This document shows positions 1,614-50,208 of a DNA stretch of 64,000 nucleotides, in pieces (positions within the stretch are counted from its first letter, which is position 1; each line of letters opens with the position of its first letter). The translations under genes were made by a program, and so were the position numbers. The notes beneath the pieces are model-generated. The model was given only the letters and a program-made list of their open reading frames with translations, was not told the origin of the DNA and did no database searches. This stretch comes from an uncultured Candidatus Saccharibacteria bacterium (lineage in GTDB: Bacteria > Patescibacteriota > Minisyncoccia > Phycocordibacterales > GCA-2401445): NCBI GenBank assembly GCA_964436015.1, contig CAYTAR010000001.1, positions 28,321 to 92,320 on the forward strand, in the 5' to 3' direction.

Positions 1614-1702
1614 TAGAAATTTTTATTCAACTGTGCTACTATATTTCGGTTGTTTGAAATAAATTCACATGATTCAACATGTGAATTATGTGAGAGTACA
1701 TT

Positions 1703-1735
1703 CCACCTTAGCTCAGCCTGCCTGCCGGTAGGTGG
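1703..1735 (+). pseudogene. tRNA remnant: 14 nt identical to 5' end of tRNA-Thr (ccaccttagctcag) whose acceptor 5' strand pairs directly with downstream aggtgg
   Basis: ccaccttagctcag at 1703-1716 identical to 1841-1854; CCACCT/AGGTGG pairing closes a mini-hairpin; rest of tRNA missing. Confidence 0.4.
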
Positions 1736-1839
1736 GTTGTAGAGGCGAGAAAGCATGTTATGTTTTTGAGCGGTTTTGTCCAAAACCGTTACAGGTTTGA
1801 GTGTACATTAATTTCAAAATAATATATTGTTATCCAATC

Positions 1840-1912
1840 GCCACCTTAGCTCAGTTGGTAGAGCAACGGTTTTGTAAACCGTAGGTCGTCAGTTCAAGCC
1901 TGACAGGTGGCT
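1840..1912 (+). tRNA. tRNA-Thr (anticodon TGT)
   Basis: Hand-folded cloverleaf: acceptor GCCACCT/AGGTGGC, D-arm GCTC-AGTTGGTA-GAGC, anticodon stem ACGGT/ACCGT with loop TTTGTAA (TGT), variable AGGTC, T-arm GTCAG-TTCAAGC-CTGAC; no encoded CCA. Confidence 0.85.
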
Positions 1913-2125
1913 CAAAGTCTGCACAGTTGGTGGAGGTGAGAGTCTATGGGGATAGACTCGAACGGTTTTGTAAACCGTAGGTCGTCAGTTCAAGCCTGAC
2001 AGGTGGCTCAAAGTCTGCACAGTTGGTGGAGGTGAGAGTCTATGGGGATAGACTCGAACGGTTTTGTAAACCTGATAGTCGTCAGGCGCAATTTCTCAGG
2101 TTGGCTCAAAGTCAGCTCAGTTTTG
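1865..2125 (+). repeat. Tandem direct repeats (period 96 nt; copy 1 1865-1960 includes the 3' half of tRNA-Thr, copy 2 1961-2056 identical, copy 3 2057-~2125 degenerate)
   Basis: Unit aacggttttgtaaaccgtaggtcgtcagttcaagcctgacaggtggctcaaagtctgcacagttggtggaggtgagagtctatggggatagactcg occurs twice perfectly, third copy diverged. Confidence 0.85.
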
Positions 2126-2164
2126 TTACGGTTTTATTTTTAAAACACTACGTGTGTTTTATTT

Positions 2165-2893
2165 ATGTTGTTTTTTCTGTATAATGCTTTTATGTCACGA
2201 GCGCGGCGCCAGTATATTCATCCTATTACTCAAGTTACTCATACCATTGTTAGCACATTAACCACGCTTGGTTTTTCAGCAGTACTTGGTCCAGAACGAG
2301 AAACAGAGTATTACAATTTTGATGCGGTCAATATTCCTTTTGATCATCCATCACGAGACATGCAAGATACGTTTTGGTTGACGGACAAAACTCTTTTAAG
2401 AACACACACAAGTGCGGTGCAGGTGCGATACATGGAAGAGCACGCGCCTCCTCTTGCAATTGTAGTTCCAGGGAAGGTGTACCGAAATGAAGCAACAGAT
2501 GCAACTCATGAGGTTCAGTTCCATCAAATAGAGGTCCTGTATGTGAACAAGAATGTATCTATTGCTCAGCTTAAAGGAATAATTACAAAACTACTTACGA
2601 CAATATTTTCCTCGGACGTTAAAATTCGTTTTAGACAAAGTTATTTTTCGTTTACCGAACCTTCTATTGAGGTAGACGTTTCAAGCCCACGAATAAAAAA
2701 TGGTGCTTGGATTGAGGTGCTTGGCGCAGGTTTAGTTCATCCAAATGTTCTTAAAAATGGGGGAATTGACCCACATGAGTGGAGTGGTTTTGCGTTTGGA
2801 ATAGGCGTGGAGCGTATTGCAATGATTCTTTATGGAATAACAGATATACGCGCTTTCTACGATGGTGATATTCGTTTTTTAAAACAATTTTAG
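2165..2893 (+). CDS. pheS: Phenylalanine--tRNA ligase alpha subunit (catalytic core only, 242 aa)
   Basis: Class II core motifs FDHPSRDMQDTFW, HTSAVQVR, FRQSYFSFTEPS, GFAFGIGVERIAM; immediately followed by pheT. Confidence 0.9.
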   Translation: MLFFLYNAFMSRARRQYIHPITQVTHTIVSTLTTLGFSAVLGPERETEYYNFDAVNIPFDHPSRDMQDTFWLTDKTLLRTHTSAVQVRYMEEHAPPLAIVVPGKVYRNEATDATHEVQFHQIEVLYVNKNVSIAQLKGIITKLLTTIFSSDVKIRFRQSYFSFTEPSIEVDVSSPRIKNGAWIEVLGAGLVHPNVLKNGGIDPHEWSGFAFGIGVERIAMILYGITDIRAFYDGDIRFLKQF

Positions 2894-2894
2894 T

Positions 2895-4853
2895 ATGAAA
2901 TTTTCCTTTGAGTGGTTACAGTCATATATCGGAGAATCTCTTCCTCATCCAGAAAAACTTGCGGAGGTTATTACTCAAAAACTCGCAGAGGTTGAATCAG
3001 TTACCGAGCTTTCAAATGGCGATTTTTGCTTTGATGTAAAAGTGTTACCTGACCGTGCGTGTTATTTACTATCTCACCGTGGTTTAGCATATGAAATTGC
3101 AGCTATTACTGGATTGCCATATCGAGATAAGACTCTTGAATACGGAACATTTAATGAATCCCTTCCGGCACCAGACATCCTTGTTGATCAATTGAGTGAG
3201 TTGGCACGATATTCTCTCGTACGAATTGACGGATTATCCTCAGACACAACACCGCCGTGGATGAAGCAACGGTTACTTGCGGTTGGTCAAAAATCAATTC
3301 ATCCGATTGTTGATGCGATAAACTATATACTTTTTGATATTGGTCAACCGTTGCATGCTTTTGATGCCGACCTAGTCTCAGGGGTAGTCCACGTAAGGTA
3401 TGCAAAACCCGGTGAGTCATTTACAACCCTTGATGGAAAAGAAATTCCACTTACAGTAACAAACGTAGTGATAGCAGATGATTCCGGCATACTCGCGCTT
3501 GCTGGCATAAAGGGTGGAAACCGGGCTGGGGTTAGTAGTACAACGACACGTATCCTTCTTGAGTCAGCTTCATTTAATGCTTCTTATGTGAGGCGCGCTT
3601 CAGGTTCGGTTGGCATTCAAACTGATGCTTCAAAACGTTTTGAGAATAACGTAACGAGCGCATTGGTAATGGTAGGAATGAAGCTCGCTATACAATTATT
3701 GAGAGATATTGCAGGAACTTCACAGACCGAGGTGAGTAAAGCTTCTTCAGTTGTTACTAATCAAGAAAATCGACTTCCTGTAGAATTAAGTCTTTCAAAG
3801 TTGCAAAGTGCGCTAGGTGTGTCAATTGATTCTTCTCAAATTGAACGTTACTTAACTCAACTTCGCTTTGCATATGAAAAAACAGTAGATGGGTATAGTA
3901 TCACTCCGCCTGTGTTTAGAAATGACATTGTAATTCCTGAGGATGTAATAGAGGAAATTGCTCGATTGTACGGATTTGATGAAATCCCTATTGAAGATCT
4001 TGATCTTTCTACAGTAAAAAATAATTCTTCTACACTTTTTGAGCTCATCTCTAGCATGAAATCCTTTTTCATTGAGAGGGGCTACTTAGAGCATTACGGC
4101 AGGGTTCTTATTGGGACAGGGGATATAGCTGTATTGAAGTCATACGCAGAAGATAAAAAATACTTAAGAAATTCACTTTCCCCGGGAATAGTGGCTGTAC
4201 TTGAGCAGAATATTCAACATACTTTATTTGATACTGATAGTGTTGCAATGTTTGAGATAGGCACTGTTTTTAAAAGGGATTCTGAAGAGATAAGGTGCAT
4301 TATTGCTGTTGGACAAAAAACACACAAGAAAAATTCAACTCAAAAAGACATTGAAACCATACTAGATGTTCTGATTGAAGAATATGGAATTTCCGTTACT
4401 CGTAGTGTTTTGCTCGATCATTTAAAATCAACAATTGTTTCTACTCAAACAATTACGTATGTTGAGTTTTCTCTTGCTGATTTAGAAGCGCATGTTTCAA
4501 AAATCCCTTCATCAGACATACTTACTACTTCGCATACTATTACCGAGTACTACACACCGTTCTCTGTGTATCCGAGAATAATTCGCGATGTTGCACTTTT
4601 TACACCACCTGATGTAGATCCTGCGGTAGTTGCGGAACAAATAAGGAAGTCTGCAGGAGAGTATTGCACGGAAGGCCCTGCTCTTTTTGATGTCTATCAG
4701 AAACGTAATGCGCATGGTGATATTGAACAGCAATCCCTCGCTTTTAGGATGGCTTTCCAGTCTACTAGTCGCACACTAACAGATGAGGAAGTTGAAGTGT
4801 TTATGGCTTCTGTGTATCAAAATTTGACGGCAAATGGGTATACAATTAGGTAG
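2895..4853 (+). CDS. pheT: Phenylalanine--tRNA ligase beta subunit (compact, 652 aa)
   Basis: B3/B4 and B5 domain similarity, C-terminal FDVYQ...AFR anticodon-binding-like region; pheS-pheT synteny. Confidence 0.9.
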   Translation: MKFSFEWLQSYIGESLPHPEKLAEVITQKLAEVESVTELSNGDFCFDVKVLPDRACYLLSHRGLAYEIAAITGLPYRDKTLEYGTFNESLPAPDILVDQLSELARYSLVRIDGLSSDTTPPWMKQRLLAVGQKSIHPIVDAINYILFDIGQPLHAFDADLVSGVVHVRYAKPGESFTTLDGKEIPLTVTNVVIADDSGILALAGIKGGNRAGVSSTTTRILLESASFNASYVRRASGSVGIQTDASKRFENNVTSALVMVGMKLAIQLLRDIAGTSQTEVSKASSVVTNQENRLPVELSLSKLQSALGVSIDSSQIERYLTQLRFAYEKTVDGYSITPPVFRNDIVIPEDVIEEIARLYGFDEIPIEDLDLSTVKNNSSTLFELISSMKSFFIERGYLEHYGRVLIGTGDIAVLKSYAEDKKYLRNSLSPGIVAVLEQNIQHTLFDTDSVAMFEIGTVFKRDSEEIRCIIAVGQKTHKKNSTQKDIETILDVLIEEYGISVTRSVLLDHLKSTIVSTQTITYVEFSLADLEAHVSKIPSSDILTTSHTITEYYTPFSVYPRIIRDVALFTPPDVDPAVVAEQIRKSAGEYCTEGPALFDVYQKRNAHGDIEQQSLAFRMAFQSTSRTLTDEEVEVFMASVYQNLTANGYTIR

Positions 4854-4928: not shown

Positions 4929-6998
4929 ATGGCAAAAGAAGAAGAAAAAAAAGCAAAAAAGAGTAGTTACGGAGCGGATGATATCACCGTTCTTGAAGGC
5001 CTTGATCCTGTTCGTAAGCGACCGGGAATGTATATCGGCACTACGGGTCAAGATGGTTTACATACACTCATTAGGGAGATTTTTGACAATGGTCGCGATG
5101 AGGCCATGGGTGGCTTTGCGAATGATATAGAAATTGTCCTTCTTCCAAACAACCGAGTTCGAGTCGTTGATAATGGACGAGGTATTCCGGTAGATAAGCA
5201 CAAAAAGACGAAAGTGTCTGCGTTGGAGACCATTATGACCACACTCCATGCAGGAGGTAAGTTTGGTGGGGAGGGATATAAAGTGTCTGGTGGTCTTCAC
5301 GGAGTAGGTGCGTCAGTAGTGAATGCGCTTTCAATATATACTCGAGTTGAGGTGCATCGTGACGGTGGTAAATATGTTCAAGAGTATTCACAGGGAAAAA
5401 AGAAAGCCGATGTAAAAAAGATTGGATCATCTGACAAAAACGGAACCATTGTTACTTTTGAGCCTGATGTTGAAATTTTCAAAGAAATAAAGTATAGCTG
5501 GAATTGGCTCGTGAATCACGTGAGACAACAAGCATACCTTGTAAAAGGAATGCGGGTGAGTGTTATCGATGCGCGTGAATTAAATGAGGTGTATGACCAA
5601 GATTGCTTCTACCTTCGTGAGCTTATGCTCGATGCTCCGTCAATGACGTTTTACTTTGAAGGAGGATTGCAATCAATGGTTCGATTCTATAATGAAATTT
5701 TCAAACCTGTTCATAAGAATATTTTTTATGTAGAAAGAGAAAATATTGATGACAATGTTGTGTCTGTTGAAATTGCTCTTCAGTATGCCGATGATATATC
5801 TTCTCGCGTACTGGCGTTCGCAAACAACATCTACAATAGCGAGGGAGGAACACACCTTACGGGATTTAAAACTGCACTCACTCGTACAATTAATGCGTAT
5901 TTAAAAAAGAATAACCTCCTGAAGGCAGGAGATGAGCCGTTTACTGGAGACGATGTACTTGAAGGATTAACCGCGGTTGTGTCAGTTAAGCTTCGTGATA
6001 TTCAATTTGAAGGTCAAACTAAAGGAAAATTAGGTAGCGTTGAAGCTCGAAGTGCGGTTGAGGCGGTGTTCGGCGAAGCATTTTCAGAGTATCTTGAAGA
6101 ACATCCTGACGATGCTCGCATGATGATACAGAAGACACTGCTCGCAATGCGTGCACGAAAGGCTGCAAAAGCCGCCAAAGACAACGTGTTGCGAAAAGGT
6201 GCGCTTGAGGGTATTACGCTCCCTGGTAAACTTGCTGATTGTCAGACAAAGAAAGCAGAGGATTCAGAGATATTTATTGTAGAAGGAGATTCTGCTGGCG
6301 GATCTGCGAAACAAGGTCGTGATAGGAAAACTCAAGCGATTATGCCTTTACGAGGTAAGATTCTGAATGTTGAGCGTGCACGTTTGGATAAAATGCTCGC
6401 ACATACAGAAATTAAGGCGTTAGTGATTGCATTCGGAACTGCAATTGGTGATGTGTTTGATATTTCTAGATTGAGGTACCATAAAATTATCATTGCAACA
6501 GATGCTGACGTGGATGGTGCGCACATTAGAACCCTACTTCTCACTCTTTTTTATCGTTACTTTAAACCGTTGATAGAAGGGGGGTATGTTTATATTGCAC
6601 AACCGCCACTATACAAGGTAAAAAGAGGAAAAGATATTAACTATTTCTATACTGAATCGGAAAAGAACCAGTATTTGAAAAAAGAGAAGATAGAATTAGA
6701 TACAGAATCTGAAGTTATGGAGTCAGACCAGCCACAAGAGAATGAAGAGGTGGCGGATGAGGTAGTAAGCAAGAAGAGTCCAAAAGTAAGTATTCAACGA
6801 TATAAAGGTTTGGGAGAAATGAACCCTGAAGAGCTTTGGGAAACAACGATGGATCCTGCACGTCGCGTGCTTAAACAGGTAACTATTGAAGATGGGCAAG
6901 AGGCTGATAAGGTATTTGATATATTGATGGGTGTTGATGTCGCTTCACGAAAGTCGTTCATTCAAGATAATGCAAAACTTGCAACTATAGATATATAA
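4929..6998 (+). CDS. gyrB: DNA gyrase subunit B
   Basis: GHKL ATPase motifs (LEGLDPVRKRPGMYIGTT, DNGRGIP, GGLHGVGASVVNALS), Toprim EGDSAGGSAKQGRDR, C-terminal QRYKGLGEMNPEELWETTMDP. Confidence 0.9.
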   Translation: MAKEEEKKAKKSSYGADDITVLEGLDPVRKRPGMYIGTTGQDGLHTLIREIFDNGRDEAMGGFANDIEIVLLPNNRVRVVDNGRGIPVDKHKKTKVSALETIMTTLHAGGKFGGEGYKVSGGLHGVGASVVNALSIYTRVEVHRDGGKYVQEYSQGKKKADVKKIGSSDKNGTIVTFEPDVEIFKEIKYSWNWLVNHVRQQAYLVKGMRVSVIDARELNEVYDQDCFYLRELMLDAPSMTFYFEGGLQSMVRFYNEIFKPVHKNIFYVERENIDDNVVSVEIALQYADDISSRVLAFANNIYNSEGGTHLTGFKTALTRTINAYLKKNNLLKAGDEPFTGDDVLEGLTAVVSVKLRDIQFEGQTKGKLGSVEARSAVEAVFGEAFSEYLEEHPDDARMMIQKTLLAMRARKAAKAAKDNVLRKGALEGITLPGKLADCQTKKAEDSEIFIVEGDSAGGSAKQGRDRKTQAIMPLRGKILNVERARLDKMLAHTEIKALVIAFGTAIGDVFDISRLRYHKIIIATDADVDGAHIRTLLLTLFYRYFKPLIEGGYVYIAQPPLYKVKRGKDINYFYTESEKNQYLKKEKIELDTESEVMESDQPQENEEVADEVVSKKSPKVSIQRYKGLGEMNPEELWETTMDPARRVLKQVTIEDGQEADKVFDILMGVDVASRKSFIQDNAKLATIDI

Positions 6999-35338: not shown

Positions 35339-36409
35339 ATGAAGAAATCTAAAAAAATAAAAGTTGCGCTTGTTGGTATAGGAAATTGCGCAAGTTCTCT
35401 TGTTCAAGGTGTTTCATTTTATTCAAGATCAGAAAATACGACAGTCGGGTTAATGCATCCCAATTTTGCCGGATTTAAGGTGTCTGATATTGAATTTGTT
35501 ACCGCGTTTGATGTCGATAAAAGAAAAGTGGGAAAAGATCTCGCAGAAGCAATATTTCAAAAACCTAACTGTGCCAAGAAGTTTCAAGGGGTTGAACTAT
35601 TAAATATCAAGGTATTGAAGGGACACGTTTTAGATGGTGTAGCACCTCATATGCAAGAATACTTTATTGTCGATGACGAACAGAAATCAGTTGACATTGC
35701 GCAGGAATTACATAAAAGCGGCGCAGAAATGCTCATCTCTTATTTACCAGTGGGTAGTGCTGAAGCGTCGAGATTTTATGCTAATGAGGCAATAAAGGCT
35801 GGAGTCGGATTTATTAACGCTATTCCTGAATTTATTTGTTCTAAGCCAGAATGGATAGCTAAATTTAAAGAAAAAGGAATACCTTGTGCTGGTGATGATA
35901 TAAAATCACAATTTGGCGCAACTATTTTGCATAGGATTGTAACAAGATTTATTGAAGATCGTGGACATAAGATTGATAACACATATCAATTAAATATCGG
36001 CGGGAATACAGATTTTTTAAACATGAAAGATGAAAGTCGATTGGCTTCAAAAAGATTATCAAAAACGAATGCGGTGACTTCAATACTTGGAGAAAAAGAG
36101 TTCGGGGTTCGAATTGGTCCTAGTGATTACATACCACACCTTAATGACAATAAAATTTGCTATATAAATGTTAAAGGTAAACAATTTGGAGGACTACCTT
36201 TTGAATTAGATATTAAATTAAGTGTTGAAGATAGCCCGAATAGTGCTGGTGTTATGATAGATGTTATTAGAGCCATGAGAGTTGCCCTTGATTGTGGAAT
36301 CTCGGGAAACTTAGAAGCAATTAGTGCATACTATTTTAAGTCACCAGAAGTTCAATATAGAGACGATATTGCTAGGACAATGGTTGAAGACTTTATCAAT
36401 TTTAATTAA
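35339..36409 (+). CDS. ino1: myo-Inositol-1-phosphate synthase (short archaeal/bacterial type, 356 aa)
   Basis: NAD-binding KVALVGIGNCASSLVQG (yeast Ino1 LVGLGGNNGSTL), QLNIGGNTDF (SYNHLGNNDG), SKRLSKTNAV (SKEISKSNVV). Confidence 0.8.
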   Translation: MKKSKKIKVALVGIGNCASSLVQGVSFYSRSENTTVGLMHPNFAGFKVSDIEFVTAFDVDKRKVGKDLAEAIFQKPNCAKKFQGVELLNIKVLKGHVLDGVAPHMQEYFIVDDEQKSVDIAQELHKSGAEMLISYLPVGSAEASRFYANEAIKAGVGFINAIPEFICSKPEWIAKFKEKGIPCAGDDIKSQFGATILHRIVTRFIEDRGHKIDNTYQLNIGGNTDFLNMKDESRLASKRLSKTNAVTSILGEKEFGVRIGPSDYIPHLNDNKICYINVKGKQFGGLPFELDIKLSVEDSPNSAGVMIDVIRAMRVALDCGISGNLEAISAYYFKSPEVQYRDDIARTMVEDFINFN

Positions 36410-36418
36410 TAAGATTTT

Positions 36419-37639
36419 ATGATTTACATACATAAAAAAGAATTATTAGAGCCTGAGTATGAATTTGTCGAACGTAAAGGTCTTGGACACCCAGACACCT
36501 TGTCGGATGCTCTTGCTGAGTTTTTGTCAGTTAACTATTCAAACTATACTCTGAAGAATTTCGGCGCAGTCTTACATCATAATTTTGATAAAGTTGGATT
36601 ACTTGGAGGTGCTTCATTTGTAAAATTTGGTGAGGGATACTTAACAAAACCTATAAGAGTATTACTTAACGGTCGCGCTTCAACAAAATTCGGGGATAAA
36701 AATATTCCTGTTGAAGATTTGTTAAAATCTTGGGTTAGTGAATTTCTGCTAAACAAATTTAGAGATCTAATAAAAGAAAGTGATCTGGAAATTCATTATA
36801 ATTTAAGTACTCAAAGTAGCCCTGGTAAAACTGAAGACTTTAAGTCTACAAATACTCCTCGAAAGTTTTGGTTTGAACCAAGAAATTTTGACGATCTTCC
36901 GGAGACTAAAAAATTATTCTCCAATGATACTTCTTTGGGTGTAGGTTACGCTCCTCATTCTAAATTAGAGAGACTTGTTTTAGATATTGAAGAAACTTTA
37001 AACTCTAAGAGTTTTAAAAAGGATCATCCGTGGATAGGATCCGATATTAAAATAATGGGCACGAGGCATGGTCAGCAGTTTGGTATAACTTTATGCATAC
37101 CGCAAATAGCTAACTACGTACATTCGGTTGATGAATATAGACAAAATTTAGAGCAGACTAAACAAGTTATTTTCAGGATTTCTCAAAATGTTGGAATAAA
37201 TAATCTTGAGTTATCGTGTAATACTCGTGATAATTTAGAGACAAAAGAACTTTATCTTACGGCGATCGGTTCATCAATAGAAAGCGGTGATGAAGGTTTG
37301 GTTGGTAGAGGGAATAGAGTAAACGGGATAATTTCACCTACAAGACTTATGAGCATGGAAGGGGCTTGCGGTAAAAATCCTGTTTATCATATCGGCAAGA
37401 TTTACTATGTGGCTGCCAACGAGATTAGTAAAAAAATATTTGAAAAGTTTGGCGTCGCAAATGAAGTTTCTTTGATTAGCCAAAGTGGCCGAGATTTACT
37501 TGATCCATGGAAGACCTTCGTTACTTTATACAATTCAGATATAAGCGAAGAACTGGTTCTGATTTTTGTTGAAAACGAGTTAAAAAATATTCCAGAAATA
37601 ACCAGAGGCCTATTAGAGAATAAATTAAGGCTATTTTAA
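36419..37639 (+). CDS. mat: S-adenosylmethionine synthetase, archaeal type (PF01941-like), 406 aa
   Basis: Near-colinear with archaeal MAT: [79 protein letters not shown]; lacks bacterial MetK GHPDKIxDQISD and GGGAFSGKD motifs. Confidence 0.85.
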
Positions 37640-37650
37640 ATTTTAATGTT

Positions 37651-38775
37651 ATGGAAAAGATGCCTAATCAAGAAAAAGAAATAACAAGACTGGAATATTT
37701 GACTACCCATGTTGGTCTAGTCAGGCAACTTGATGAAAAATATTTGCTTGATGAGAAAGTATATTCAACAGATATTCAAAATGAAAGCTTATTAGAACAC
37801 ATACCGACAATTAAGCCGGATAGAGTGATTAGACAGGAAGGAGACACGACTATTTTTACTTCAGCTGGTATTCAGCACCTTGAAACTCTTGAACGTGACA
37901 AAATTAATTTAGAAAGGGAGAAGTTCAAAATTGCACAACCGGTTGTTCGCAGTCAGTTTATGGATAAGATCAAAGAAGGTTATTCGACATCTTTTATAGA
38001 TGAGGCCACCACTCAACTCGGAGTATCTGATGAAGATTTTTTTAGTATGTGTAAACAAATGGTAATCAATTCGTTAAATCATGATGCGGATATACAAAAA
38101 TACCATTTAACAATTGAGGCTCAGGATGATCGTTGGGGTCAAAAAAAGTTCACCAAATTAGTCGTTACTTTGTATTATGATGGGAACGAAGTGTCAGAAG
38201 GTGTATATATAGATAAATTTCCTAAAATTGATGGGCAGACTGTCTCTGTTGCCGAAACAACCCACAGCGCCGAAAGATTTAATTGGATTCACAGAGAAAA
38301 TCGAGACCGACCATATTTTATTGGCTTTGAAGAATTCTATAATACTGATAATAAAGATGATGTCGCAAGAATTATAGATCCCGTCAGAACTGCTACATTG
38401 ATGCTCATGCAAGGAGTTGTTCCATCACATAAGGATCCCGGATTCAGATTAAGACAGCTGATTAAAAGATTTGTGGAAAGAAATGCCGAGACTTCTTTTT
38501 CTGAAGATAGACTTTTAAATTTATCACATGATTTTTGGTTAGGAAATAACGTTGAAGGAATTGTTGATAAGGTCGAGATTCGTGAATTGTTAAAGAAAGA
38601 AATGACACGTGCTCAAAATGTACACATTGTCAGTTGGGTCGAGATAAATACTGGTAAGAAAATTAAGGTTGATGTGAATCTAAGCACAGATGAATTTCTT
38701 AAAAGGATCTATTCTTCATCACCAGAGGAGATTATTGGGGTAGTAAAAAGTATTAATTTAAAAAAATATGAGTAA
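37651..38775 (+). CDS. Alanyl-tRNA synthetase catalytic-domain paralog (truncated, 374 aa; motif 3 degenerate) - putative amino acid ligase
   Basis: Colinear matches to E. coli AlaRS N-terminal region: TTIFTSAGIQ (LLFTNAGMNQ), AQPVVRSQ (SQRCVRAG), RIIDPVRTATLMLMQGVVPSHKDPGFRLRQLIKRFVER ([39 protein letters not shown]); position of DTGMGLERI occupied by ETTHSAERF; no editing or C-Ala domains. Confidence 0.7.
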   Translation: MEKMPNQEKEITRLEYLTTHVGLVRQLDEKYLLDEKVYSTDIQNESLLEHIPTIKPDRVIRQEGDTTIFTSAGIQHLETLERDKINLEREKFKIAQPVVRSQFMDKIKEGYSTSFIDEATTQLGVSDEDFFSMCKQMVINSLNHDADIQKYHLTIEAQDDRWGQKKFTKLVVTLYYDGNEVSEGVYIDKFPKIDGQTVSVAETTHSAERFNWIHRENRDRPYFIGFEEFYNTDNKDDVARIIDPVRTATLMLMQGVVPSHKDPGFRLRQLIKRFVERNAETSFSEDRLLNLSHDFWLGNNVEGIVDKVEIRELLKKEMTRAQNVHIVSWVEINTGKKIKVDVNLSTDEFLKRIYSSSPEEIIGVVKSINLKKYE

Positions 38776-39445
38776 ACTTTTTTTAAGCGGTGGTGGCGAT
38801 ATAGAGACATCTTATCCGTTCGATAGTCTATTCTTTGATTCACTGCCACAGAGCGCGAATATTCTTTATATTCCCATTGCAATGGCAACCACCATGGCTA
38901 GAACAGAAGCATCTTTTGACTGGTTTTCAAAATTGATTTCAAGTCATTCAAGTAGCGACAAACACTTGGACTTTACTGTGTGGAATACTGGAGATTCTTT
39001 ACCTATCCTACATAATTACAATGCTGTATATGTTGGTGGTGGTAATACATATAGACTCTTGATGATGTTAGAAAAACCAGGAATGCTTGATGCTCTAAAA
39101 AAATATATCAGAAATGGTGGTATCTATTATGGTGGGAGCGCCGGTGCCGTGATTGTTGGTAAAAGCTTACGGACAGTGGATGAAGAAAATTTAGAAAATT
39201 ATTCAAAGCGTGATGGTATGAATCTTATTAATAATCTTTCTATATTCCCACATTTTTCAGATAGTGAGGAGCAAAAAAATATCATTAGAAATATCTGTGG
39301 CAATTATGCTTTAACGATAGCCGCGCTTCCTGAAGGCTCAGGTCTTGTTCTCGATGAGCGAGGCATAAGTGTTTACGGTAATATGTATTTATATGAACAA
39401 GAAAAGAAAACTCTTTTTTATACATCTGGGCAAATTATCAAGTAA
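38768..39445 (+). CDS. Peptidase S51 family protein (peptidase E / cyanophycinase-like serine hydrolase)
   Basis: VYVGGGNTYRLL, nucleophile motif YGGSAGAV, His in IFPHFSD; overlaps upstream gene by 8 nt. Confidence 0.7.
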   Translation: MSKLFLSGGGDIETSYPFDSLFFDSLPQSANILYIPIAMATTMARTEASFDWFSKLISSHSSSDKHLDFTVWNTGDSLPILHNYNAVYVGGGNTYRLLMMLEKPGMLDALKKYIRNGGIYYGGSAGAVIVGKSLRTVDEENLENYSKRDGMNLINNLSIFPHFSDSEEQKNIIRNICGNYALTIAALPEGSGLVLDERGISVYGNMYLYEQEKKTLFYTSGQIIK

Positions 39446-40595
39446 TTCTGGTCATACAGCGCGATTGCGGTATGAGTTAAAGGATATCAGCAAGACGGCG
39501 GATATTTCGATTCTGTCTTTGACAAATGAGCCTGACCAATCTTTCATCAATAAAAATCCAAATATACATTTTTATGTTTTGCCGATTAAGTTTAATGGCT
39601 GGAAAGTCGTTAATTTGGGTCATATTGTAGGGCAGATAAATGAAATAATCAGCTTTTGTAAGCCAGATATTGTTATTTTGTGTGTTGAGATCTGGGATTT
39701 AATTTTAGGGTTACATAAAAAAATATCTGACAAAGTAGTGTTTTGTGCTATATGCCACGCAATGCCATTTTTGGGTTCACCCTTGAATCCAACAAAATCC
39801 TTTGAATCAGATGTAAGGAAATTTGCTAATAAGCAAACGCTAAAATACAGAAAAAACTATATTACCAAACATTACAGAGAATTTCCTAAAATTATAAACT
39901 CTGGCTTACTAATTGCAAATAATGCAACCGTTGCTTTTTATTTCAAAAATTATTTCCCGAGGTCATCGTTTTGGAGACAAGTGCCTCATGTTACAGTTGA
40001 TCCGCTTAAAACGTCTAAAACCCTAGATATTGAGTATGATTTTTGTTATATGGCGAGAATGGAGAAAGGAAAAGGAGTAGAATATCTGCAAGATTTGTTT
40101 AGCAGAATTTCAATCAAGTTGGGTAGAAAAATCAGTGTGGCAATCATGGGCAGAGCTGATGATAAGTACTCCCAAGAAGAACTTAGAGGGCTACTTGAAA
40201 GTGAAGGTGAATCTTTTTCCGTTCGTTTTTTCGGTTGGGCTGATGATAAAACCAAAGCTGAAGTGTTGAGTAAAAGTGGTTGTTTTATTTATCCGTCAAC
40301 TTACGATAATTTTCCGACAGTGGTTAATGAAGCTATGGCTCATAGCTTACCTGTGGCAATGTGGGATACTCTTTTTTATAAAGTTAACTATTCTGACATA
40401 AAGTCTGTATCTGTGGCTACTCCTTTTAATGTTGAGCATCTGGCTTCAGTGGCCGTGAATCTGTTACAAGGAAAATCTACCTTACGTCGCCATTCTATAG
40501 AATACATAAAGGAAAATGGTGGCTCCAGATCAGTCGCAAAAGATGATCTTATACTATTTGATGAGATAATTAAGCGTTATGAAAGAAATAAATAA
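39393..40595 (+). CDS. Glycosyltransferase family 4 (GT-B; MshA/PIG-A-like retaining GT); ORF track start 39369
   Basis: C-terminal GT4 signature FIYPSTYDNFPTVVNEAMAHSLPVAMWD (EX7E-type motif). Confidence 0.8.
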   Translation: MNKKRKLFFIHLGKLSSNSGHTARLRYELKDISKTADISILSLTNEPDQSFINKNPNIHFYVLPIKFNGWKVVNLGHIVGQINEIISFCKPDIVILCVEIWDLILGLHKKISDKVVFCAICHAMPFLGSPLNPTKSFESDVRKFANKQTLKYRKNYITKHYREFPKIINSGLLIANNATVAFYFKNYFPRSSFWRQVPHVTVDPLKTSKTLDIEYDFCYMARMEKGKGVEYLQDLFSRISIKLGRKISVAIMGRADDKYSQEELRGLLESEGESFSVRFFGWADDKTKAEVLSKSGCFIYPSTYDNFPTVVNEAMAHSLPVAMWDTLFYKVNYSDIKSVSVATPFNVEHLASVAVNLLQGKSTLRRHSIEYIKENGGSRSVAKDDLILFDEIIKRYERNK

Positions 40596-45986: not shown

Positions 45987-46007
45987 TAATTATGTTATAA
46001 TATATAT

Positions 46008-46709
46008 ATGACATCAGAGACTACGAGATTTATGTTTGTCCTGCCGATACTGTTTCAGAGTATTATTTATATTGTTATATATATACCATTTAAGGTCTTT
46101 GCTCGTTTTAAAGTGCATGGACTAGAAGAGTTGTCTTTACAACCACAAGGGTTAATTTTTGCTCCGAATCACACCAGTGAGTGGGATCCGATACTTGTTC
46201 GTTTCGCACTTCCACTATTCTCAAGGAAGTTCAGTCCTATGTACTATGTGGCTCGGCAAAGACGTGAGTATACAGAATCAGGTTTGAGACAGTTTTTTTA
46301 TGGAGGTGTTTTTTTCAAATTAGTTGGCGGTTATCCTCGTTACTCAGGTAAAAAAAATTACAATTACTCACTGTTCAATCATATACATCTGTTAAAAAGA
46401 AAAAAAAATGTTACTATTTTCCCTGAAGGAAAAAAGTATGTTGGTGAGATTAATAGAAAAGTTCATGGAGGGGTAGCATTTCTCTCTCATGTAACCAGTA
46501 CACCAGTGATTCCTGTTGCAATCAAAGGTATAGAAAACTTCTCATTAATACGTTTCTTTTCTTTTAAAATGAGAATTTCTGTTACATTTGGAAAGCCAAT
46601 TGATCCACTTACTATTATTCCGCAAACAAATCCAGCTGTTGAAGACTACCAACTAGGTGCACAGTTTATATGGGAAAAAATTCTTGATTTACAACAGCAG
46701 AAACTATGA
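46008..46709 (+). CDS. plsC: 1-acyl-sn-glycerol-3-phosphate acyltransferase family (PlsC/OlsA-like)
   Basis: HxxxxD motif NHTSEWDP, FPEGKK motif, N-terminal TM. Confidence 0.75.
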   Translation: MTSETTRFMFVLPILFQSIIYIVIYIPFKVFARFKVHGLEELSLQPQGLIFAPNHTSEWDPILVRFALPLFSRKFSPMYYVARQRREYTESGLRQFFYGGVFFKLVGGYPRYSGKKNYNYSLFNHIHLLKRKKNVTIFPEGKKYVGEINRKVHGGVAFLSHVTSTPVIPVAIKGIENFSLIRFFSFKMRISVTFGKPIDPLTIIPQTNPAVEDYQLGAQFIWEKILDLQQQKL

Positions 46710-47458
46710 TTACAATAAAAAAACTGACTATTCTAGAGGGAAAGAATAAAAAAACAATAGAATTTGGTATAGCAAATACTCCTGAGGAATTAGAAAAAAT
46801 TTTTAAACTTAGATTTGAAGAGTACTCTAAAAGAGATTATATTTTCAATGAGCGTTACCAAGACAAAAGAGAAGTAGACTTCTATGATGGGCTTATAAGT
46901 ACAAAATATTTCTGTGCATTCCTAGAAGGAAAATTGATAGGTACTATACGGTTAATTACTGAAAAACCACTACCAACGGAACAATATTTTGATTTTACTC
47001 CTCCAGACGAAATAAAAAATCTTCCTAAAGAAAAGTTAGCAGAACTAGGTAGATTTATTGTAATTCCACCTGATCGAGACAAAAAAATTTTTTTACCAAG
47101 AAATGTAGTTTTACTTTTTTTAATAGAAGTGCTTGTCACTTACGCGAAAGAACAAGGTTTAGTGGGCGGATATGCATTTATAAAGCAGTCTTTGATTATA
47201 AAGTTAAAAAAGCTGTCTGCGCCAATTAAGCAAATACCTGTTTATAAAATGCATTATCCAGATGATGGTTCTTTATACAAGTATTTTTATCAAAAAGAAA
47301 ATCCCGTCTTTCCTTGTTATTATGTGTTAGAGGATTTTCAAAAGTACCTGAATAAATTAATTCATTCAGAATGGTTGTTCAAAAAGATAGGCATAGGTCA
47401 TTTTCAATTACGTAGCAACTTATATACTAAGTTTTTAAAAGTTTTTAAGGTATTATAA
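46706..47458 (+). CDS. GNAT-fold N-acyltransferase, N-acyl amino acid synthase / OlsB-like (putative)
   Basis: GKLIGTIRLI and ELGRFIV motifs resembling NAS/OlsB/exosortase-associated acyltransferases; start overlaps plsC stop (ATGA). Confidence 0.5.
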   Translation: MITIKKLTILEGKNKKTIEFGIANTPEELEKIFKLRFEEYSKRDYIFNERYQDKREVDFYDGLISTKYFCAFLEGKLIGTIRLITEKPLPTEQYFDFTPPDEIKNLPKEKLAELGRFIVIPPDRDKKIFLPRNVVLLFLIEVLVTYAKEQGLVGGYAFIKQSLIIKLKKLSAPIKQIPVYKMHYPDDGSLYKYFYQKENPVFPCYYVLEDFQKYLNKLIHSEWLFKKIGIGHFQLRSNLYTKFLKVFKVL

Positions 47459-47462
47459 AGGT

Positions 47463-48167
47463 ATGTTAAATGATACTTTCTGGGAAAAATATTTTTCTGT
47501 GTATGATGCCTTGAATAAATTAATACCTTATCAGGAATTATTAAATCAAATTGTCCTTTCGGCGGGAGAATTAAATGATAAAAAGATACTTGATGCGGGT
47601 TCTGGTACAGGTAATCTCTCTGTGTTGCTTTCTATGTCTGGGGCTACCGTTACGGGAATAGATTATTCTAGAGTAGGGGTATCTATACATAAATCAAAAT
47701 TGCCGAATAGTAAAGTGGTAGTTTCTAATTTGTGCGATTTGCTTCCATTCGAAAGTTCTGAATTTGATGTTGTGGTTTCAAATAATACACTTTACACGAT
47801 TCCTAGGAAGGAAAGAGAGTCTATAGCGCATGAGTTTTTTAGAGTATTAAAACCTGGTGGAAGGGTGGTTATATCTAATCTCAAAGTTAACTTTTCACCA
47901 TTAAAAATTTATATTGACCATTTACAAAAGTCTTTATCAGTAAATGGTTTCTTGAAGACAGTTTATACAGCTTGTAAACTCATACATCCTACAATTAAAA
48001 TTTTTTATTATAATAAATTAATTCAAAACGAAAACCGTAGTGGCTCATATGATTTTTTTGAAGATAATGAGCAATCAGAACTTTTAATTAGAGCCGGATT
48101 TTCGAAAATAACTCTTGTTAAAGATGTATATTCCAAGCAAGGTGAATTAGTGGTCGCTCTAAAATAA
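47463..48167 (+). CDS. Class I SAM-dependent methyltransferase
   Basis: Motif I ILDAGSGTGNLSVLL, motif post-I VTGIDYS, motif II FDVVVSNNTLY, LKPGGRVVIS. Confidence 0.8.
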   Translation: MLNDTFWEKYFSVYDALNKLIPYQELLNQIVLSAGELNDKKILDAGSGTGNLSVLLSMSGATVTGIDYSRVGVSIHKSKLPNSKVVVSNLCDLLPFESSEFDVVVSNNTLYTIPRKERESIAHEFFRVLKPGGRVVISNLKVNFSPLKIYIDHLQKSLSVNGFLKTVYTACKLIHPTIKIFYYNKLIQNENRSGSYDFFEDNEQSELLIRAGFSKITLVKDVYSKQGELVVALK

Positions 48168-49772: not shown

Positions 49773-50208
49773 TCATTTATCTCAAACTGAATATTCCTAT
49801 GGAGTTGTACCTTTCTTCAAAAACGAAGAAGGTAATATTGAAATACTTTTCGTGTGCCAGGTTGAAGGGAAATGGGGTTTTCCTAAGGGGCACTCTGAAG
49901 AAAATGAAGATCCGCTTATTACCGCACAACGTGAGTTTAGCGAGGAGACGGGAATAACTGATTTTGAATTGTTAGACCCATTTTTATTTACCGAAACATA
50001 CACTCATACGAAAGATGGCATTTCCAGAGTGAAGATAGTCGAATACGCTCCTGTGCTAGTACTATCAAAAGATACCGACATCCAAGAAGCTGAGATTGCT
50101 GAGATAGCGTGGGTTACTCTTTCTTCCACTCCAGCGTTTGAACTTACACCTGGAAGAGCGGAGGTGTATGTGCAGGCATGTAAATATGTCACCGAGAAGC
50201 ACCTTTAA
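49762..50208 (+). CDS. NUDIX hydrolase
   Basis: Nudix box GFPKGHSEENEDPLITAQREFSEETGI. Confidence 0.85.
   Translation: MQHNHLSQTEYSYGVVPFFKNEEGNIEILFVCQVEGKWGFPKGHSEENEDPLITAQREFSEETGITDFELLDPFLFTETYTHTKDGISRVKIVEYAPVLVLSKDTDIQEAEIAEIAWVTLSSTPAFELTPGRAEVYVQACKYVTEKHL

What the first reader, a model, noticed from the sequence alone, without database searches (positions are those of the whole stretch)
1703..2125. tRNA-Thr locus with tandem 96-nt duplications of the tRNA 3' half plus an upstream 5' fragment (integration/excision scars?)
The 3' 48 nt of tRNA-Thr(TGT) plus 48 nt of downstream sequence form a 96-nt unit that is repeated perfectly once (1961-2056) and degenerately a third time (2057-~2125). 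A 14-nt 5' tRNA fragment lies 137 nt upstream in a mini-hairpin (1703-1735). Direct repeats of tRNA 3' ends are the classic attL/attR signature of integrases that target tRNA genes. Here the repeats are adjacent with no cargo between them, which is compatible with serial integration and precise-minus-scar excision, or with replication slippage. The unit also contains a hairpin (agtcta-tgggga-tagact).
Basis: partly seen in the sequence, partly recalled or inferred. Interest (0 to 1): 0.6.

Follow-up and report, generated by a model that had tools for sequence, protein, structure and literature searches.

The report
tRNA-linked repeats flanking tRNA-Thr
The tandem copies of the tRNA-Thr 3' half are real, but they are a recent slippage duplication inside an older, conserved set of tRNA-derived leader and trailer modules, comparable to the "tRNA-linked repeats" of E. 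coli, and not scars left by an integrating element.

Summary
tRNA-Thr(UGU) lies at 1840-1913. A 96-nt unit occurs twice perfectly (1865-1960, 1961-2056), followed by a diverged copy (2057-2113). A 14-nt 5' fragment lies at 1703-1716.

The integration-scar reading is not supported:
- There is no integrase or cargo, and the flanks are syntenic housekeeping genes.
- No phage, plasmid or viral contig carries the 3' half or the spacer.

The only near relative found (L098, PheS 75% identical) carries homologous tRNA-Thr-like modules on both sides of its tRNA. The "degenerate third copy" shares derived characters with that relative's trailer module, so it is the ancestral one. The perfect repeat has the layout A-B-A-B-A-C. 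This fits unequal crossover or slippage between a 16-nt anticodon-arm segment shared by the tRNA and the trailer pseudo-tRNA.

All modules (12 units, 9 genomes, two Paceibacteria-like clades) carry an extra hairpin between the D arm and the anticodon arm. It usually has a UGGGA or UGGGGA loop and shows strong compensatory variation (97.6% paired, 7 of 7 pairs covary). Synonymous sites are near saturation between the two nearest genomes.

The closest known analogue is the E. coli tRNA-linked repeats (tyrT type). The function is unknown. I infer a co-transcribed structured leader/trailer RNA.

The parts
1614..1642 (+). Promoter-like element directly after the stop codon of the small membrane protein. 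It reads TAGAAA (1614-1619), a 17-nt spacer, then TGcTACTAT (extended -10, TACTAT at 1637-1642). It would start a transcript that contains the leader module, the tRNA and the trailer repeats.
   Evidence: Read. The consensus scan of the window did not flag it. The homologous site in L098 is TAGAAA-17-TGgTAGAAT, flagged by the scan. A TGnTAnnAT box sits at the same place in L105, L107, L109, L110 and L100. Activity is inferred, not shown.
1702..1839 (+). Leader module 'U', a tRNA-Thr-like pseudo-tRNA without a T arm. It consists of the 5' acceptor strand plus the start of the D arm (1703-1716), a window-specific 20-nt insert (1717-1736) that pairs back to the acceptor strand, hairpin hp1, hairpin hp2, a degenerate CAGG 3'-acceptor remnant, and an AT-rich spacer that ends at the tRNA.
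   Evidence: Alignment with the two L098 leader units and with L068, L073, L105 and L110. nhmmer and covariance-model hits.
1747..1769 (+). hp1 of the leader module. It reads GA, then GAAAGCAT, loop GTT, ATGTTTTT, then GA. Two of its pairs are G-U.
   Evidence: RNAalifold consensus. Covariation count on alignment A2.
1771..1788 (+). hp2 of the leader module, CGGTTTTG-TC-CAAAACCG. It is a palindrome built on the 5' strand of the anticodon stem plus the anticodon, so the UGU is buried in the stem.
   Evidence: (I9-I11). Equivalent palindromes, each built on that genome's own anticodon-arm sequence, occur in L073, L068 and L105.
1840..1913 (+). Functional tRNA-Thr(UGU). No CCA is encoded.
   Evidence: ARAGORN. 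Rfam RF00005, 71.1 bits. Identical or nearly identical to the tRNA-Thr of L049, L048 and L098.
1865..1960 (+). Repeat copy 1, made of A (1865-1880, AACGGTTTTGTAAACC) and B (1881-1960). It covers tRNA positions 26-73 plus a 48-nt trailer that holds a D-arm-like segment and hp1.
1938..1961 (+). hp1 of trailer copy 1. It reads GA, then GAGTCTA, loop TGGGGA, TAGACTC, then GA.
   Evidence: Compensated relative to L098's GTATGTA-TGGGGA-TACATAC. Counts.
1961..2056 (+). Repeat copy 2, a perfect duplicate (A+B). It includes hp1 at 2034-2057.
   Evidence: 100% identity over 96 nt.
2057..2113 (+). Ancestral trailer pseudo-tRNA 'D'. It starts with A (2057-2072, identical to the tRNA) and continues with a diverged T-arm and 3'-acceptor remnant ending CTCAGGTTGGCTCA.
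   Evidence: It shares the derived CTCAGG(T/C)TGGCTCA with the L098 trailer module, against GACAGG-TGGCTCA in both tRNAs.
2099..2150 (+). End of the array. It holds the start of a further truncated module (AAAGTCAGCTCAGTT), a terminator-like stem (2099-2117) and T-rich tracts.
   Evidence: Terminator-like site in the scan. L098 likewise begins a truncated second module after its first.
2180..2194 (+). pheS promoter-like TATAAT (2180-2185), 6 nt before the ATG (2192). pheS therefore has its own start and the repeats are not its leader.
   Evidence: Read. The scan did not flag it in the window. The same arrangement was flagged in L098.

Best explanation
The locus is a tRNA-Thr(UGU) transcription unit. 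Its 5' leader and 3' trailer are made of old, non-decoding, tRNA-Thr-derived modules.

**What the modules look like.** Each module keeps tRNA-like segments and carries an extra 7-11-bp hairpin (hp1). hp1 is usually flanked by GA/GA and usually has a UGGGA or UGGGGA loop. It is inserted where the D arm meets the anticodon arm.

**How the perfect repeat arose.** It is a recent event inside this old array. The tRNA and the ancestral trailer module shared the 16-nt segment AACGGTTTTGTAAACC, 96 nt apart. Slipped-strand mispairing or unequal homologous crossover between these two copies duplicated the 96 nt in between. The result is A-B-A-B-A-C.

**What kind of thing it is.** It is the same kind of object as the tRNA-linked repeats (TLRs) of E. 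coli, such as the tyrT-tyrV locus. These are repeats in a tRNA operon, just downstream of the tRNA, each ending with the tRNA's own 3' end.

**Inferred, not shown.**
- The whole block is transcribed from the conserved extended -10 promoter at 1614-1642.
- The tRNA is cut out by RNase P and a 3' nuclease.
- The leader and trailer RNAs are kept because of hp1, probably as a processing, stability or protein-binding element.
For: **1. Array anatomy.** The layout is two perfect 96-nt units followed by a 16-nt perfect partial unit, after which similarity to the tRNA drops to about 76% (38 of 50 aligned).

**2. The third copy is ancestral.** L098 has PheS 75% identical and the same gene order. Its tRNA is followed by a trailer module with the same D-arm-like segment, hp1 and CTCAGGCTGGCTCA. 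Both genomes then start a further truncated module.

**3. The leader module is conserved in length and architecture.**
- It is homologous to two 117-nt units in L098 (Tandem Repeats Finder score 494).
- It is homologous to single units in L068, L073, L105 and L110.
- The distance to the tRNA is 115-118 nt in four of the other genomes, 87 nt in L110, and 138 nt in the window, which carries a 20-nt insert.

**4. hp1 covaries.** In 12 units from 9 genomes, 97.6% of cells are paired. All 7 pairs show double changes, with 25 compensated cells. None of 500 shuffles reaches this, and slid controls give 32-58% paired.

**5. Strand.** There are 7 G-U cells against 1 A-C cell, which points to folding of the tRNA-sense strand.

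**6. Neutral sites are near saturation.** Fourfold-degenerate sites between the window and L098 are only 32-48% identical. Drift alone would not retain hp1, which is absent from the tRNA and so cannot be refreshed by gene conversion from it.

**7. The module is not dispersed.** The covariance model R1 hits only the tRNA-Thr locus in 64 kb with filters off. Among 100 loci it hits only the four training loci included in that search (L098 three times, L073, L068).

**8. The promoter box is conserved** in both clades.

**9. The same phenomenon recurs independently at tRNA-Thr in other Patescibacteria**.
- L110: 48-nt exact repeat of the tRNA 3' part plus trailer.
- L107: 36 nt.
- L056: 45 nt.
- L010: 80 nt.
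- L053: 99 nt x 7.6, each unit ending in the tRNA's 3' acceptor strand.

**10. E. coli comparison.** The 178-nt x 3.1 array starts inside the last 19 nt of tyrV. The TLR definition is taken from PMC8144298.
Against: - No expression or processing data exist, so transcription, the promoter and the RNA-level role are inferred.
- Only one genome is closely related. The leader module is seen in two clades (PheS 53-55% identical to each other). It is absent from lineages of similar distance (L100, L103, L048, L049), so its history (loss, transfer or convergence) is unresolved.
- Complementarity in a DNA palindrome can in principle be kept without selection, by template-switch 'quasipalindrome correction'.
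- The hp1 loop is not universal. It is GTT in the clade-A leader units and TGAGA in L110.
- The perfect duplication rests on one metagenome assembly, and its copy number could not be checked against reads.
- Gene conversion plus an older triplication would give the same layout as slippage.
Confidence: 0.7

Rival explanations
1. Integration and excision scars. A tRNA-targeting tyrosine integrase repeatedly inserted elements whose attP carried the tRNA segment from the anticodon stem to the 3' end. The elements were later lost, leaving adjacent att-like repeats.
For: Direct repeats of tRNA 3' parts are the usual product of integration into tRNA genes (PMC9897764). The perfect repeat starts at the 5' side of the anticodon stem. 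From my own knowledge, that is where att identity blocks of anticodon-loop-targeting integrases begin. Partial tRNA-Thr copies recur in other Patescibacteria.
Against: - There is no integrase or cargo, and the flanks are syntenic housekeeping genes.
- No viral, phage or plasmid sequence matches the 3' half plus spacer.
- The 'spacer' is itself tRNA-like with a conserved hairpin found in 9 genomes.
- The third copy is orthologous to the L098 module.
- Two identical 48-nt spacers would need a duplication in any case.
Confidence: 0.05
2. Neutral pseudogene array. The modules are decaying tandem duplicates of the tRNA gene with no function. Gene conversion from the tRNA keeps them recognisable, and DNA-level palindrome correction keeps the hairpins perfect. 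The 96-nt duplication is one more neutral slippage event.
For: - Tandem duplication is clearly ongoing. The window has two perfect units, L098 has two leader units at 90%, and L110 and L053 have perfect repeats.
- The tRNA-like parts of each module track the resident tRNA's own sequence.
- Module parts other than hp1 decay differently in each lineage.
Against: - hp1 is not in the tRNA, so conversion cannot maintain it. Yet it persists, with its position and usually its flanks and loop, in two clades while fourfold sites between the two closest genomes are near saturation.
- G-U pairs outnumber A-C mismatches 7 to 1, which fits RNA folding better than a DNA palindrome.
- Leader length and order of parts are conserved in most genomes.
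- These are small, gene-dense genomes in which several hundred nt of junk at one locus would be unusual. This last point is my inference.
Confidence: 0.2
3. Assembly artefact. The second perfect 96-nt unit was created, or its copy number mis-set, by the metagenome assembler.
For: The two units are 100% identical and the window comes from a single metagenome-assembled contig. Only one contig in the collection carries this PheS, and it could not be retrieved.
Against: - Assemblers tend to collapse tandem repeats rather than create them (my own knowledge).
- The surrounding non-identical modules are real. L098's trailer is reproduced in an independent Logan assembly, L099.
- Perfect tRNA-linked repeats occur in several unrelated assemblies.
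Confidence: 0.05

Closest known systems
E. coli tRNA-linked repeats (TLRs), e.g. the 178-nt x 3.1 array after tyrT-tyrV (Egan and Landy 1978, as cited in PMC8144298)
   Same: - Both lie in a tRNA operon, immediately downstream of the tRNA.
- In both, the array begins inside the 3' part of the tRNA, so each repeat ends with the tRNA's own 3' end.
- Both have a small tandem copy number (2.3 here, 3.1 at tyrT).
- A small ORF overlaps the repeats (tpr in E. coli, a 53-codon ORF here).
- No function has been established for the TLRs that lie in tRNA operons.

I checked the E. coli array directly.
   Different: - The shared tRNA segment is 48-49 nt (anticodon arm to 3' end), against 18-19 nt in E. 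coli.
- The rest of the unit is itself tRNA-derived (D-arm-like) and carries a conserved covarying hairpin.
- A related module also sits upstream of the tRNA, carrying the 5' half. This is not part of the TLR definition.
- No sequence similarity to E. coli TLRs was looked for or expected.
- The host is a Patescibacteria (CPR) genome.
Partial tRNA genes left at the ends of integrated elements (attL/attR)
   Same: A direct repeat of a tRNA 3' segment sits next to an intact tRNA gene (PMC9897764).
   Different: There is no element, integrase or attP counterpart. The repeats are adjacent, embedded in conserved tRNA-like modules, and present in relatives as a stable feature.
tRNA-like processing signals and tRNA-operon-derived small RNAs (3'-ETS-leuZ and RrA/RrB/RrF in E. 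coli; plant mitochondrial t-elements, from my own knowledge)
   Same: These are non-decoding RNA pieces co-transcribed with stable RNAs and released by the tRNA/rRNA processing machinery. RrA/B/F are TLRs that bind Hfq and CsrA through GGA motifs (PMC8144298). hp1 also displays GGA in a hairpin loop.
   Different: Nothing here shows processing or protein binding. No CsrA gene was seen in the sequence I held, which covers only a small part of each genome. The resemblance is a lead, not a test.

Membership tests
Integrase att-site scars at a tRNA gene | Direct repeat of a tRNA 3' segment next to the intact tRNA | tested here: met
   1865-1913 is repeated at 1961-2009.
Integrase att-site scars at a tRNA gene | Integrase gene or mobile cargo between or beside the repeats | tested here: not met
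   The repeats are adjacent. The neighbours are tsf, a small membrane protein, pheS, pheT and gyrB, syntenic with L098, L103 and L105. No HxLRH motif occurs in any window ORF of at least 150 aa (a weak test).
Integrase att-site scars at a tRNA gene | A mobile element elsewhere carrying the same segment as attP | tested here: not met
   There are 0 exact matches in IMG/VR for the 45-nt 3' half and for the 40-nt spacer. Phage and plasmid blastn finds only whole tRNA-Thr genes at about 80% identity. Elements of uncultured CPR hosts may be missing from these collections.
Integrase att-site scars at a tRNA gene | Repeats absent from relatives that lack the element (empty site) | tested here: not met
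   The nearest relative, L098, has homologous modules on both sides of the tRNA and no element.
tRNA-linked repeats (TLR, E. coli type) | Located in a tRNA (or rRNA) operon, immediately downstream of the stable-RNA gene | tested here: met
   The array starts inside the tRNA and ends at a terminator-like site before the pheS promoter. That it forms one operon is inferred from the promoter and terminator positions.
tRNA-linked repeats (TLR, E. coli type) | The 3' end of each repeat is identical to the 3' end of the upstream tRNA (18-19 bp in E. coli) | tested here: met
   49 nt are identical in copy 2. The ancestral copy ends in the diverged CAGGTTGGCTCA. The E. coli tyrV array begins in the last 19 nt of the tRNA.
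tRNA-linked repeats (TLR, E. coli type) | Transcribed with the tRNA and processed from the precursor | not testable with these tools
   No transcript data are available. Only promoter-like and terminator-like sites can be cited.
tRNA-linked repeats (TLR, E. coli type) | Sequence homology to the enterobacterial TLR family | not tested
   None is expected across phyla. The comparison is one of architecture only.
Canonical tRNA gene (for the repeat units) | Cloverleaf with a paired acceptor stem, scoring above the Rfam RF00005 gathering score (29 bits) | tested here: not met
   The unit at 1945-2000 scores 20.8 bits, E = 0.22, and covers model positions 8-63 only. It has no 5' acceptor strand. 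The L110 trailer module is called tRNA-Pro(ggg) by ARAGORN but gets no Rfam tRNA hit at E <= 1.
Any described RNA family (Rfam 15) | Match to a curated covariance model | tested here: not met
   Only the tRNA itself is found in the window at 1300-2600 and in L107, L109 and L110. The other rows are chance-level.
Dispersed palindromic repeats (REP/MITE-like) | Many copies scattered in intergenic regions | tested here: not met
   Model R1 hits only the three hp1 copies at the tRNA locus in 64 kb with filters off. It finds no extra hits in 100 other loci. Whole genomes were not available.

The most novel reading that the evidence does not exclude
The hp1-bearing tRNA-Thr-like modules would be an undescribed family of structured non-coding RNAs in Paceibacteria-like CPR bacteria. 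They would be made as the leader and trailer of the tRNA-Thr(UGU) precursor and released by tRNA processing. Their selected part would be the GA-flanked hairpin with a GGA-containing loop. Possible roles are a protein-binding or sponge element, like the E. coli TLR-derived RrA/B/F, or a control on tRNA-Thr maturation. If so, tRNA-linked repeats would be a widespread way of generating small RNAs rather than an enterobacterial curiosity.
Probability: 0.35. Interest if true: 0.65.

Novelty: new variant of a known kind. Interest (0 to 1): 0.45.

Why it matters
tRNA-linked repeats have been known in E. coli since 1978, and most still have no assigned function or origin.

Here the same architecture appears in a very distant, genome-reduced lineage. 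The origin of one expansion step can be read directly from the sequence: slippage between a tRNA and its neighbouring pseudo-tRNA. One embedded hairpin shows clear structural conservation across two clades.

This has three consequences.
- It gives a concrete candidate RNA motif to test.
- It warns annotators that such units can be miscalled as tRNA genes (one is called tRNA-Pro by ARAGORN) or as att sites.
- It shows that partial tRNA copies next to a tRNA are not sufficient evidence for integration.

Tried and rejected
**Searches for close relatives**
- Looking up the window's PheT and PheS by exact sequence found nothing on record.
- The genome-collection scan with PheS gave at best 58% identity.
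- The metagenome scan with PheT gave only about 30% identity.
- The one near relative (PheS 75%) came from the protein search.
- Four further PheS-based look-ups gave loci without modules, or no DNA.

**attP search**
- Two exact viral scans were empty.
- A degenerate hp1 pattern gave two viral hits that lie in coding sequence and have non-complementary arms, so they are chance matches.
- Phage and plasmid blastn gave only generic tRNA-Thr genes.

**Coding potential of the repeat**
- The 53-codon ORF at 2023-2184 is open in the same frame in L098, read by eye.
- However, the compensatory hairpin changes alter its residues, and similarity ends after ERFC.
- A short ATG-GGG-ATA ORF is absent from the clade-B units.
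- I rejected a coding role.

**Other readings rejected**
- Replication origin: there is no GC-skew switch.
- K-turn reading of the GA/GA flanks: no canonical stem can form, because the 3' flank belongs to hp2 (my inspection).
- hp1 as an anticodon arm (tRNA-Pro GGG, or an 8-nt loop frameshift-suppressor type): the loop is closed by a Watson-Crick pair, leaving 5 or 6 nt. The Rfam tRNA model does not score the unit, and the window's units lack a 5' acceptor strand.
- T-box-like or ThrRS-operator-like regulation: the downstream gene is the tRNA itself, pheS has its own promoter, and the anticodon is buried in hp2.
- Pairing of the leader's 5' acceptor strand with the AGGTG-like segment before hp1: it is possible in most units but has no covariation, so I make no claim.
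- CsrA gene: none found in the sequence I held, which is uninformative.
- Literature search for CPR tRNA-like leader elements: nothing found.
Full report
**What is in the window**

The first 8 kb encode rpsB (65-634), tsf (664-1242), a small membrane protein (1242-1613), pheS (ATG at 2192, to 2893), pheT (2895-4853) and gyrB (4929-6998). ARAGORN finds one tRNA in the whole window, tRNA-Thr(UGU) at 1840-1913. The Rfam tRNA model scores it 71.1 bits.

Tandem Repeats Finder reports a 96-nt period over 1865-2085, with 2.3 copies and score 417. The repeat finder shows that 1865-1960 and 1961-2056 are identical. The third in-register copy is identical for 16 nt only, 2057-2072. Both halves of the unit occur exactly twice in 64 kb, with none expected by chance. 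The 14-nt 5' fragment at 1703-1716 and the GAGTCTA-TGGGGA-TAGACTC hairpin are also there.

The 48-nt 'spacer' contains a D-arm-like GCACAGTTGGTGGAG (D5). Aligned to the tRNA, each unit is a nearly complete tRNA-Thr-like sequence. It lacks the 5' acceptor strand and carries a 24-nt hairpin, which I call hp1, inserted between the D arm and the anticodon arm. The Rfam tRNA model gives the unit 20.8 bits, below the threshold of 29.

**The organism and its relatives**

PheS places the window among Patescibacteria. The best match in the species-representative genomes is 58% identical. The JGI metagenome scan with PheT found only relatives of about 30% identity.

The large protein search found one near relative, P0002, 75% identical and from a Candidatus Paceibacterota MAG. 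Its contig, L098, has the same gene order: rpsB, tsf, small protein, a 733-nt gap, then pheS, pheT and gyrB. There is no recombinase.

Many Patescibacteria loci have tRNA-Thr(UGU) after the same small protein or before pheS. The tRNA's position is therefore old.

**The relative has the same kind of array**

In L098 the tRNA lies at 5607-5680. It is preceded by two 117-nt units (Tandem Repeats Finder score 494, 90% matches). Each unit consists of these parts:
- GCCACCTTAGCTCAGTTGGTGGAGG
- a hairpin, GAGAGCAT-GTT-ATGCTTTC
- a second hairpin, CGGTTTTGTATCAAAACCG
- a spacer of about 50 nt

The tRNA is followed by a module with a D-arm-like segment, the hairpin GTATGTA-TGGGGA-TACATAC, CGGTTTTGC and then CTCAGGCTGGCTCA. 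After that comes the start of a further module. An independent Logan assembly, L099, reproduces the trailer module.

The window's upstream region 1702-1839 aligns to the L098 leader units. The window's 'third copy' shares CTCAGG(T/C)TGGCTCA with the L098 trailer module. Both tRNAs have GACAGG-TGGCTCA at that place. The diverged copy is therefore the ancestral trailer module, present before the two genomes split.

**Origin of the perfect repeat**

Let A be AACGGTTTTGTAAACC and B the next 80 nt. The array then reads A-B-A-B-A-C. Before the event the tRNA's A and the trailer module's A lay 96 nt apart. Slippage or unequal crossover between them duplicates exactly A+B.

This needs no site-specific recombinase. 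It also explains why the boundary falls at tRNA position 26: that is where the tRNA and the pseudo-tRNA become identical. Gene conversion after an older triplication would look the same, and it belongs to the same class of homologous events.

**Test of the integration model**

- No cargo or integrase lies beside the repeats.
- No window ORF of at least 150 aa has the HxLRH motif (a weak test).
- There are no exact matches of the 3' half or of the spacer in IMG/VR.
- Phage and plasmid collections return only whole tRNA-Thr genes at about 80% identity.

Integration is a well-documented source of partial tRNA genes (PMC9897764), so the idea was reasonable. The defining features other than the repeat itself were not met.

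**A wider family**

A profile of the core found the leader module upstream of tRNA-Thr in L068 and L073. Their PheS proteins are 84% identical to each other and 52-55% identical to the window clade.

Fetching relatives of that second clade added the following:
- L105 (and L106): a leader module
- L107 (and L108): a trailer module
- L109: a trailer module
- L110: both a leader and a trailer module

In four of the other genomes the leader sits 115-118 nt before the tRNA. It sits 87 nt before the tRNA in L110, and 138 nt in the window, which has an extra 20-nt insert. Its parts come in the same order: 5' acceptor strand and D arm, hp1, hp2, and a spacer.

hp2 is in each case a palindrome built on that genome's own anticodon-stem 5' strand plus the anticodon. 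The tRNA-like parts are therefore kept similar to the resident tRNA, presumably by gene conversion.

The module is absent upstream of tRNA-Thr in L100, L103, L048, L049 and others. The covariance model R1 finds it nowhere else in the window with filters off. Among 100 other loci it finds only the training instances.

**Is hp1 under selection?**

Twelve units from nine genomes were aligned. The seven core pairs are formed in 97.6% of cells. All seven pairs show changes on both sides, with 25 compensated cells. No shuffle out of 500 reaches the observed values, and sliding the partner by 1-3 columns drops pairing to 32-58%.

The stems differ between units: GAAAGCAT, GAGAGCAT, GAGTCTA, GTATGTA, AAAAGTC, GAAAGTC, GGAGTGC and others. 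The loop is UGGGA or UGGGGA in 8 of 12 units, and the flanks are GA/GA in eight. Seven cells are G-U and one is A-C, which favours folding of the tRNA-sense strand.

Between the window and L098, fourfold-degenerate sites are only 32-48% identical, close to saturation. hp1 has no counterpart in the tRNA, so gene conversion from the tRNA cannot preserve it.

I conclude that hp1 is probably maintained by selection on structure. The shuffle control does not correct for relatedness, and a DNA-level palindrome-correction mechanism is not excluded.

**Transcription context (inferred)**

A box TAGAAA-17-TGnTAnnAT follows the stop codon of the small protein in the window (1614-1642) and in L098. The TGnTAnnAT part is also present in L105, L107, L109, L110 and L100.

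A terminator-like stem and T tracts end the array at 2099-2150. pheS has TATAAT at 2180-2185, 6 nt before its ATG, and L098 has the same arrangement. pheS is therefore probably a separate, leaderless transcript.

The leader module, the tRNA and the trailer repeats would thus form one precursor RNA. The predicted fold of 1648-2150 keeps the tRNA cloverleaf and every hp1 hairpin (z = -4.4).

**Comparison with what is known**

E. coli has 22 tRNA-linked repeats at ten loci. Each lies just downstream of a tRNA or rRNA gene and ends with 18-19 nt identical to that gene's 3' end. Most have no known function. Three of them, in rRNA operons, give small RNAs that bind Hfq and CsrA in vitro (PMC8144298).

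I checked the type locus directly. After tyrV there is a 178-nt x 3.1 array at 95% identity that begins inside the last 19 nt of the tRNA.

The window's array has the same layout, with three differences:
- a longer shared segment, 48-49 nt
- a unit that is itself tRNA-derived
- a companion module upstream of the tRNA

Similar tRNA-linked repeats with other units follow tRNA-Thr in L010, L053 (99 nt x 7.6), L056, L107 and L110. No Rfam family matches, and I found no paper describing such modules in CPR bacteria.

**Verdict**

The repeat is real. The integrase interpretation is not supported, and the slippage alternative is.

The more interesting result is the conserved, covarying hairpin in tRNA-derived leader and trailer modules, whose function is unknown. 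I rate this a new variant of a known kind (tRNA-linked repeats) and of moderate interest.

Noticed in passing
window 2180-2194; L098 5967-6003: pheS has a TATAAT box only 6 nt before its ATG in both genomes, which suggests a leaderless mRNA. PheS is only about 230-250 aa in this whole group, well short of the usual bacterial length as I recall it.
   Followed up: partly
L053 2320-3072: A 99-nt unit is repeated 7.6 times at 99% identity, about 100 nt downstream of tRNA-Thr(UGU) and its terminator, in a Candidatus Nomurabacteria genome. Every unit ends in CATACAGGTGGC, the tRNA's 3' acceptor strand, and contains a hairpin with a CTTGT loop.
   Followed up: partly
L010 4150-4448; L056 2146-2291; L110 2642-2802; L107 2564-2787: These are independent direct repeats of the tRNA-Thr 3' part plus trailer in other Patescibacteria. 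The repeat lengths are 80, 45, 48 and 36 nt and the spacings are 219, 101, 113 and 188 nt. The boundaries fall in the T loop or the variable region.
   Followed up: partly
L110 2695-2788: ARAGORN calls the trailer module a 94-nt tRNA-Pro(ggg) by reading the hp1 loop CTGGGAG as an anticodon loop. The Rfam tRNA model gives no hit at E <= 1. This is probably a false tRNA call of the kind discussed in PMC9897764.
   Followed up: yes
L107 2511-2522 with 2596-2609; L109 2498-2509 with 2581-2594 (approximate): The 12 nt before the tRNA (AAAAGGCTTGGA, or AAAAGGCTGTGA) are complementary to the 12 nt after it. This would extend the acceptor stem into a long leader-trailer helix.
   Followed up: no
window 1717-1736: The window's leader module has a 20-nt insert (CCTGCCTGCCGGTAGGTGGG) that is absent from L098. 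It supplies AGGTGG, which pairs with the 5' acceptor strand CCACCT. In L098 the D-loop variant GGTGG can do the same. This may be a compensating change, but I found no covariation to support it.
   Followed up: partly
window 1768-1779: The 96-nt register continues upstream. The leader's anticodon-like GAGCGGTTTTGT starts exactly 96 nt before the tRNA's CAACGGTTTTGT (D3). This may be coincidence, or equal spacing that favours slippage.
   Followed up: no
L014 3842-3853; L100 about 575-600: A short element, TAGCTGTTTTGG(C/T)AG, lies 40-60 nt upstream of tRNA-Thr in two further genomes. It looks like a much-reduced leader module made of the tRNA 5' fragment joined to the anticodon-stem start.
   Followed up: no
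window 36001-40000 and 46001-50000: G+C falls to 0.32-0.35 in these stretches, against about 0.40 elsewhere. I did not examine the gene content.
   Followed up: no
L100 5754-6110: A gene with the 23S_rRNA_IVP domain (PF05635) sits between pheS and pheT in one relative.
   Followed up: no
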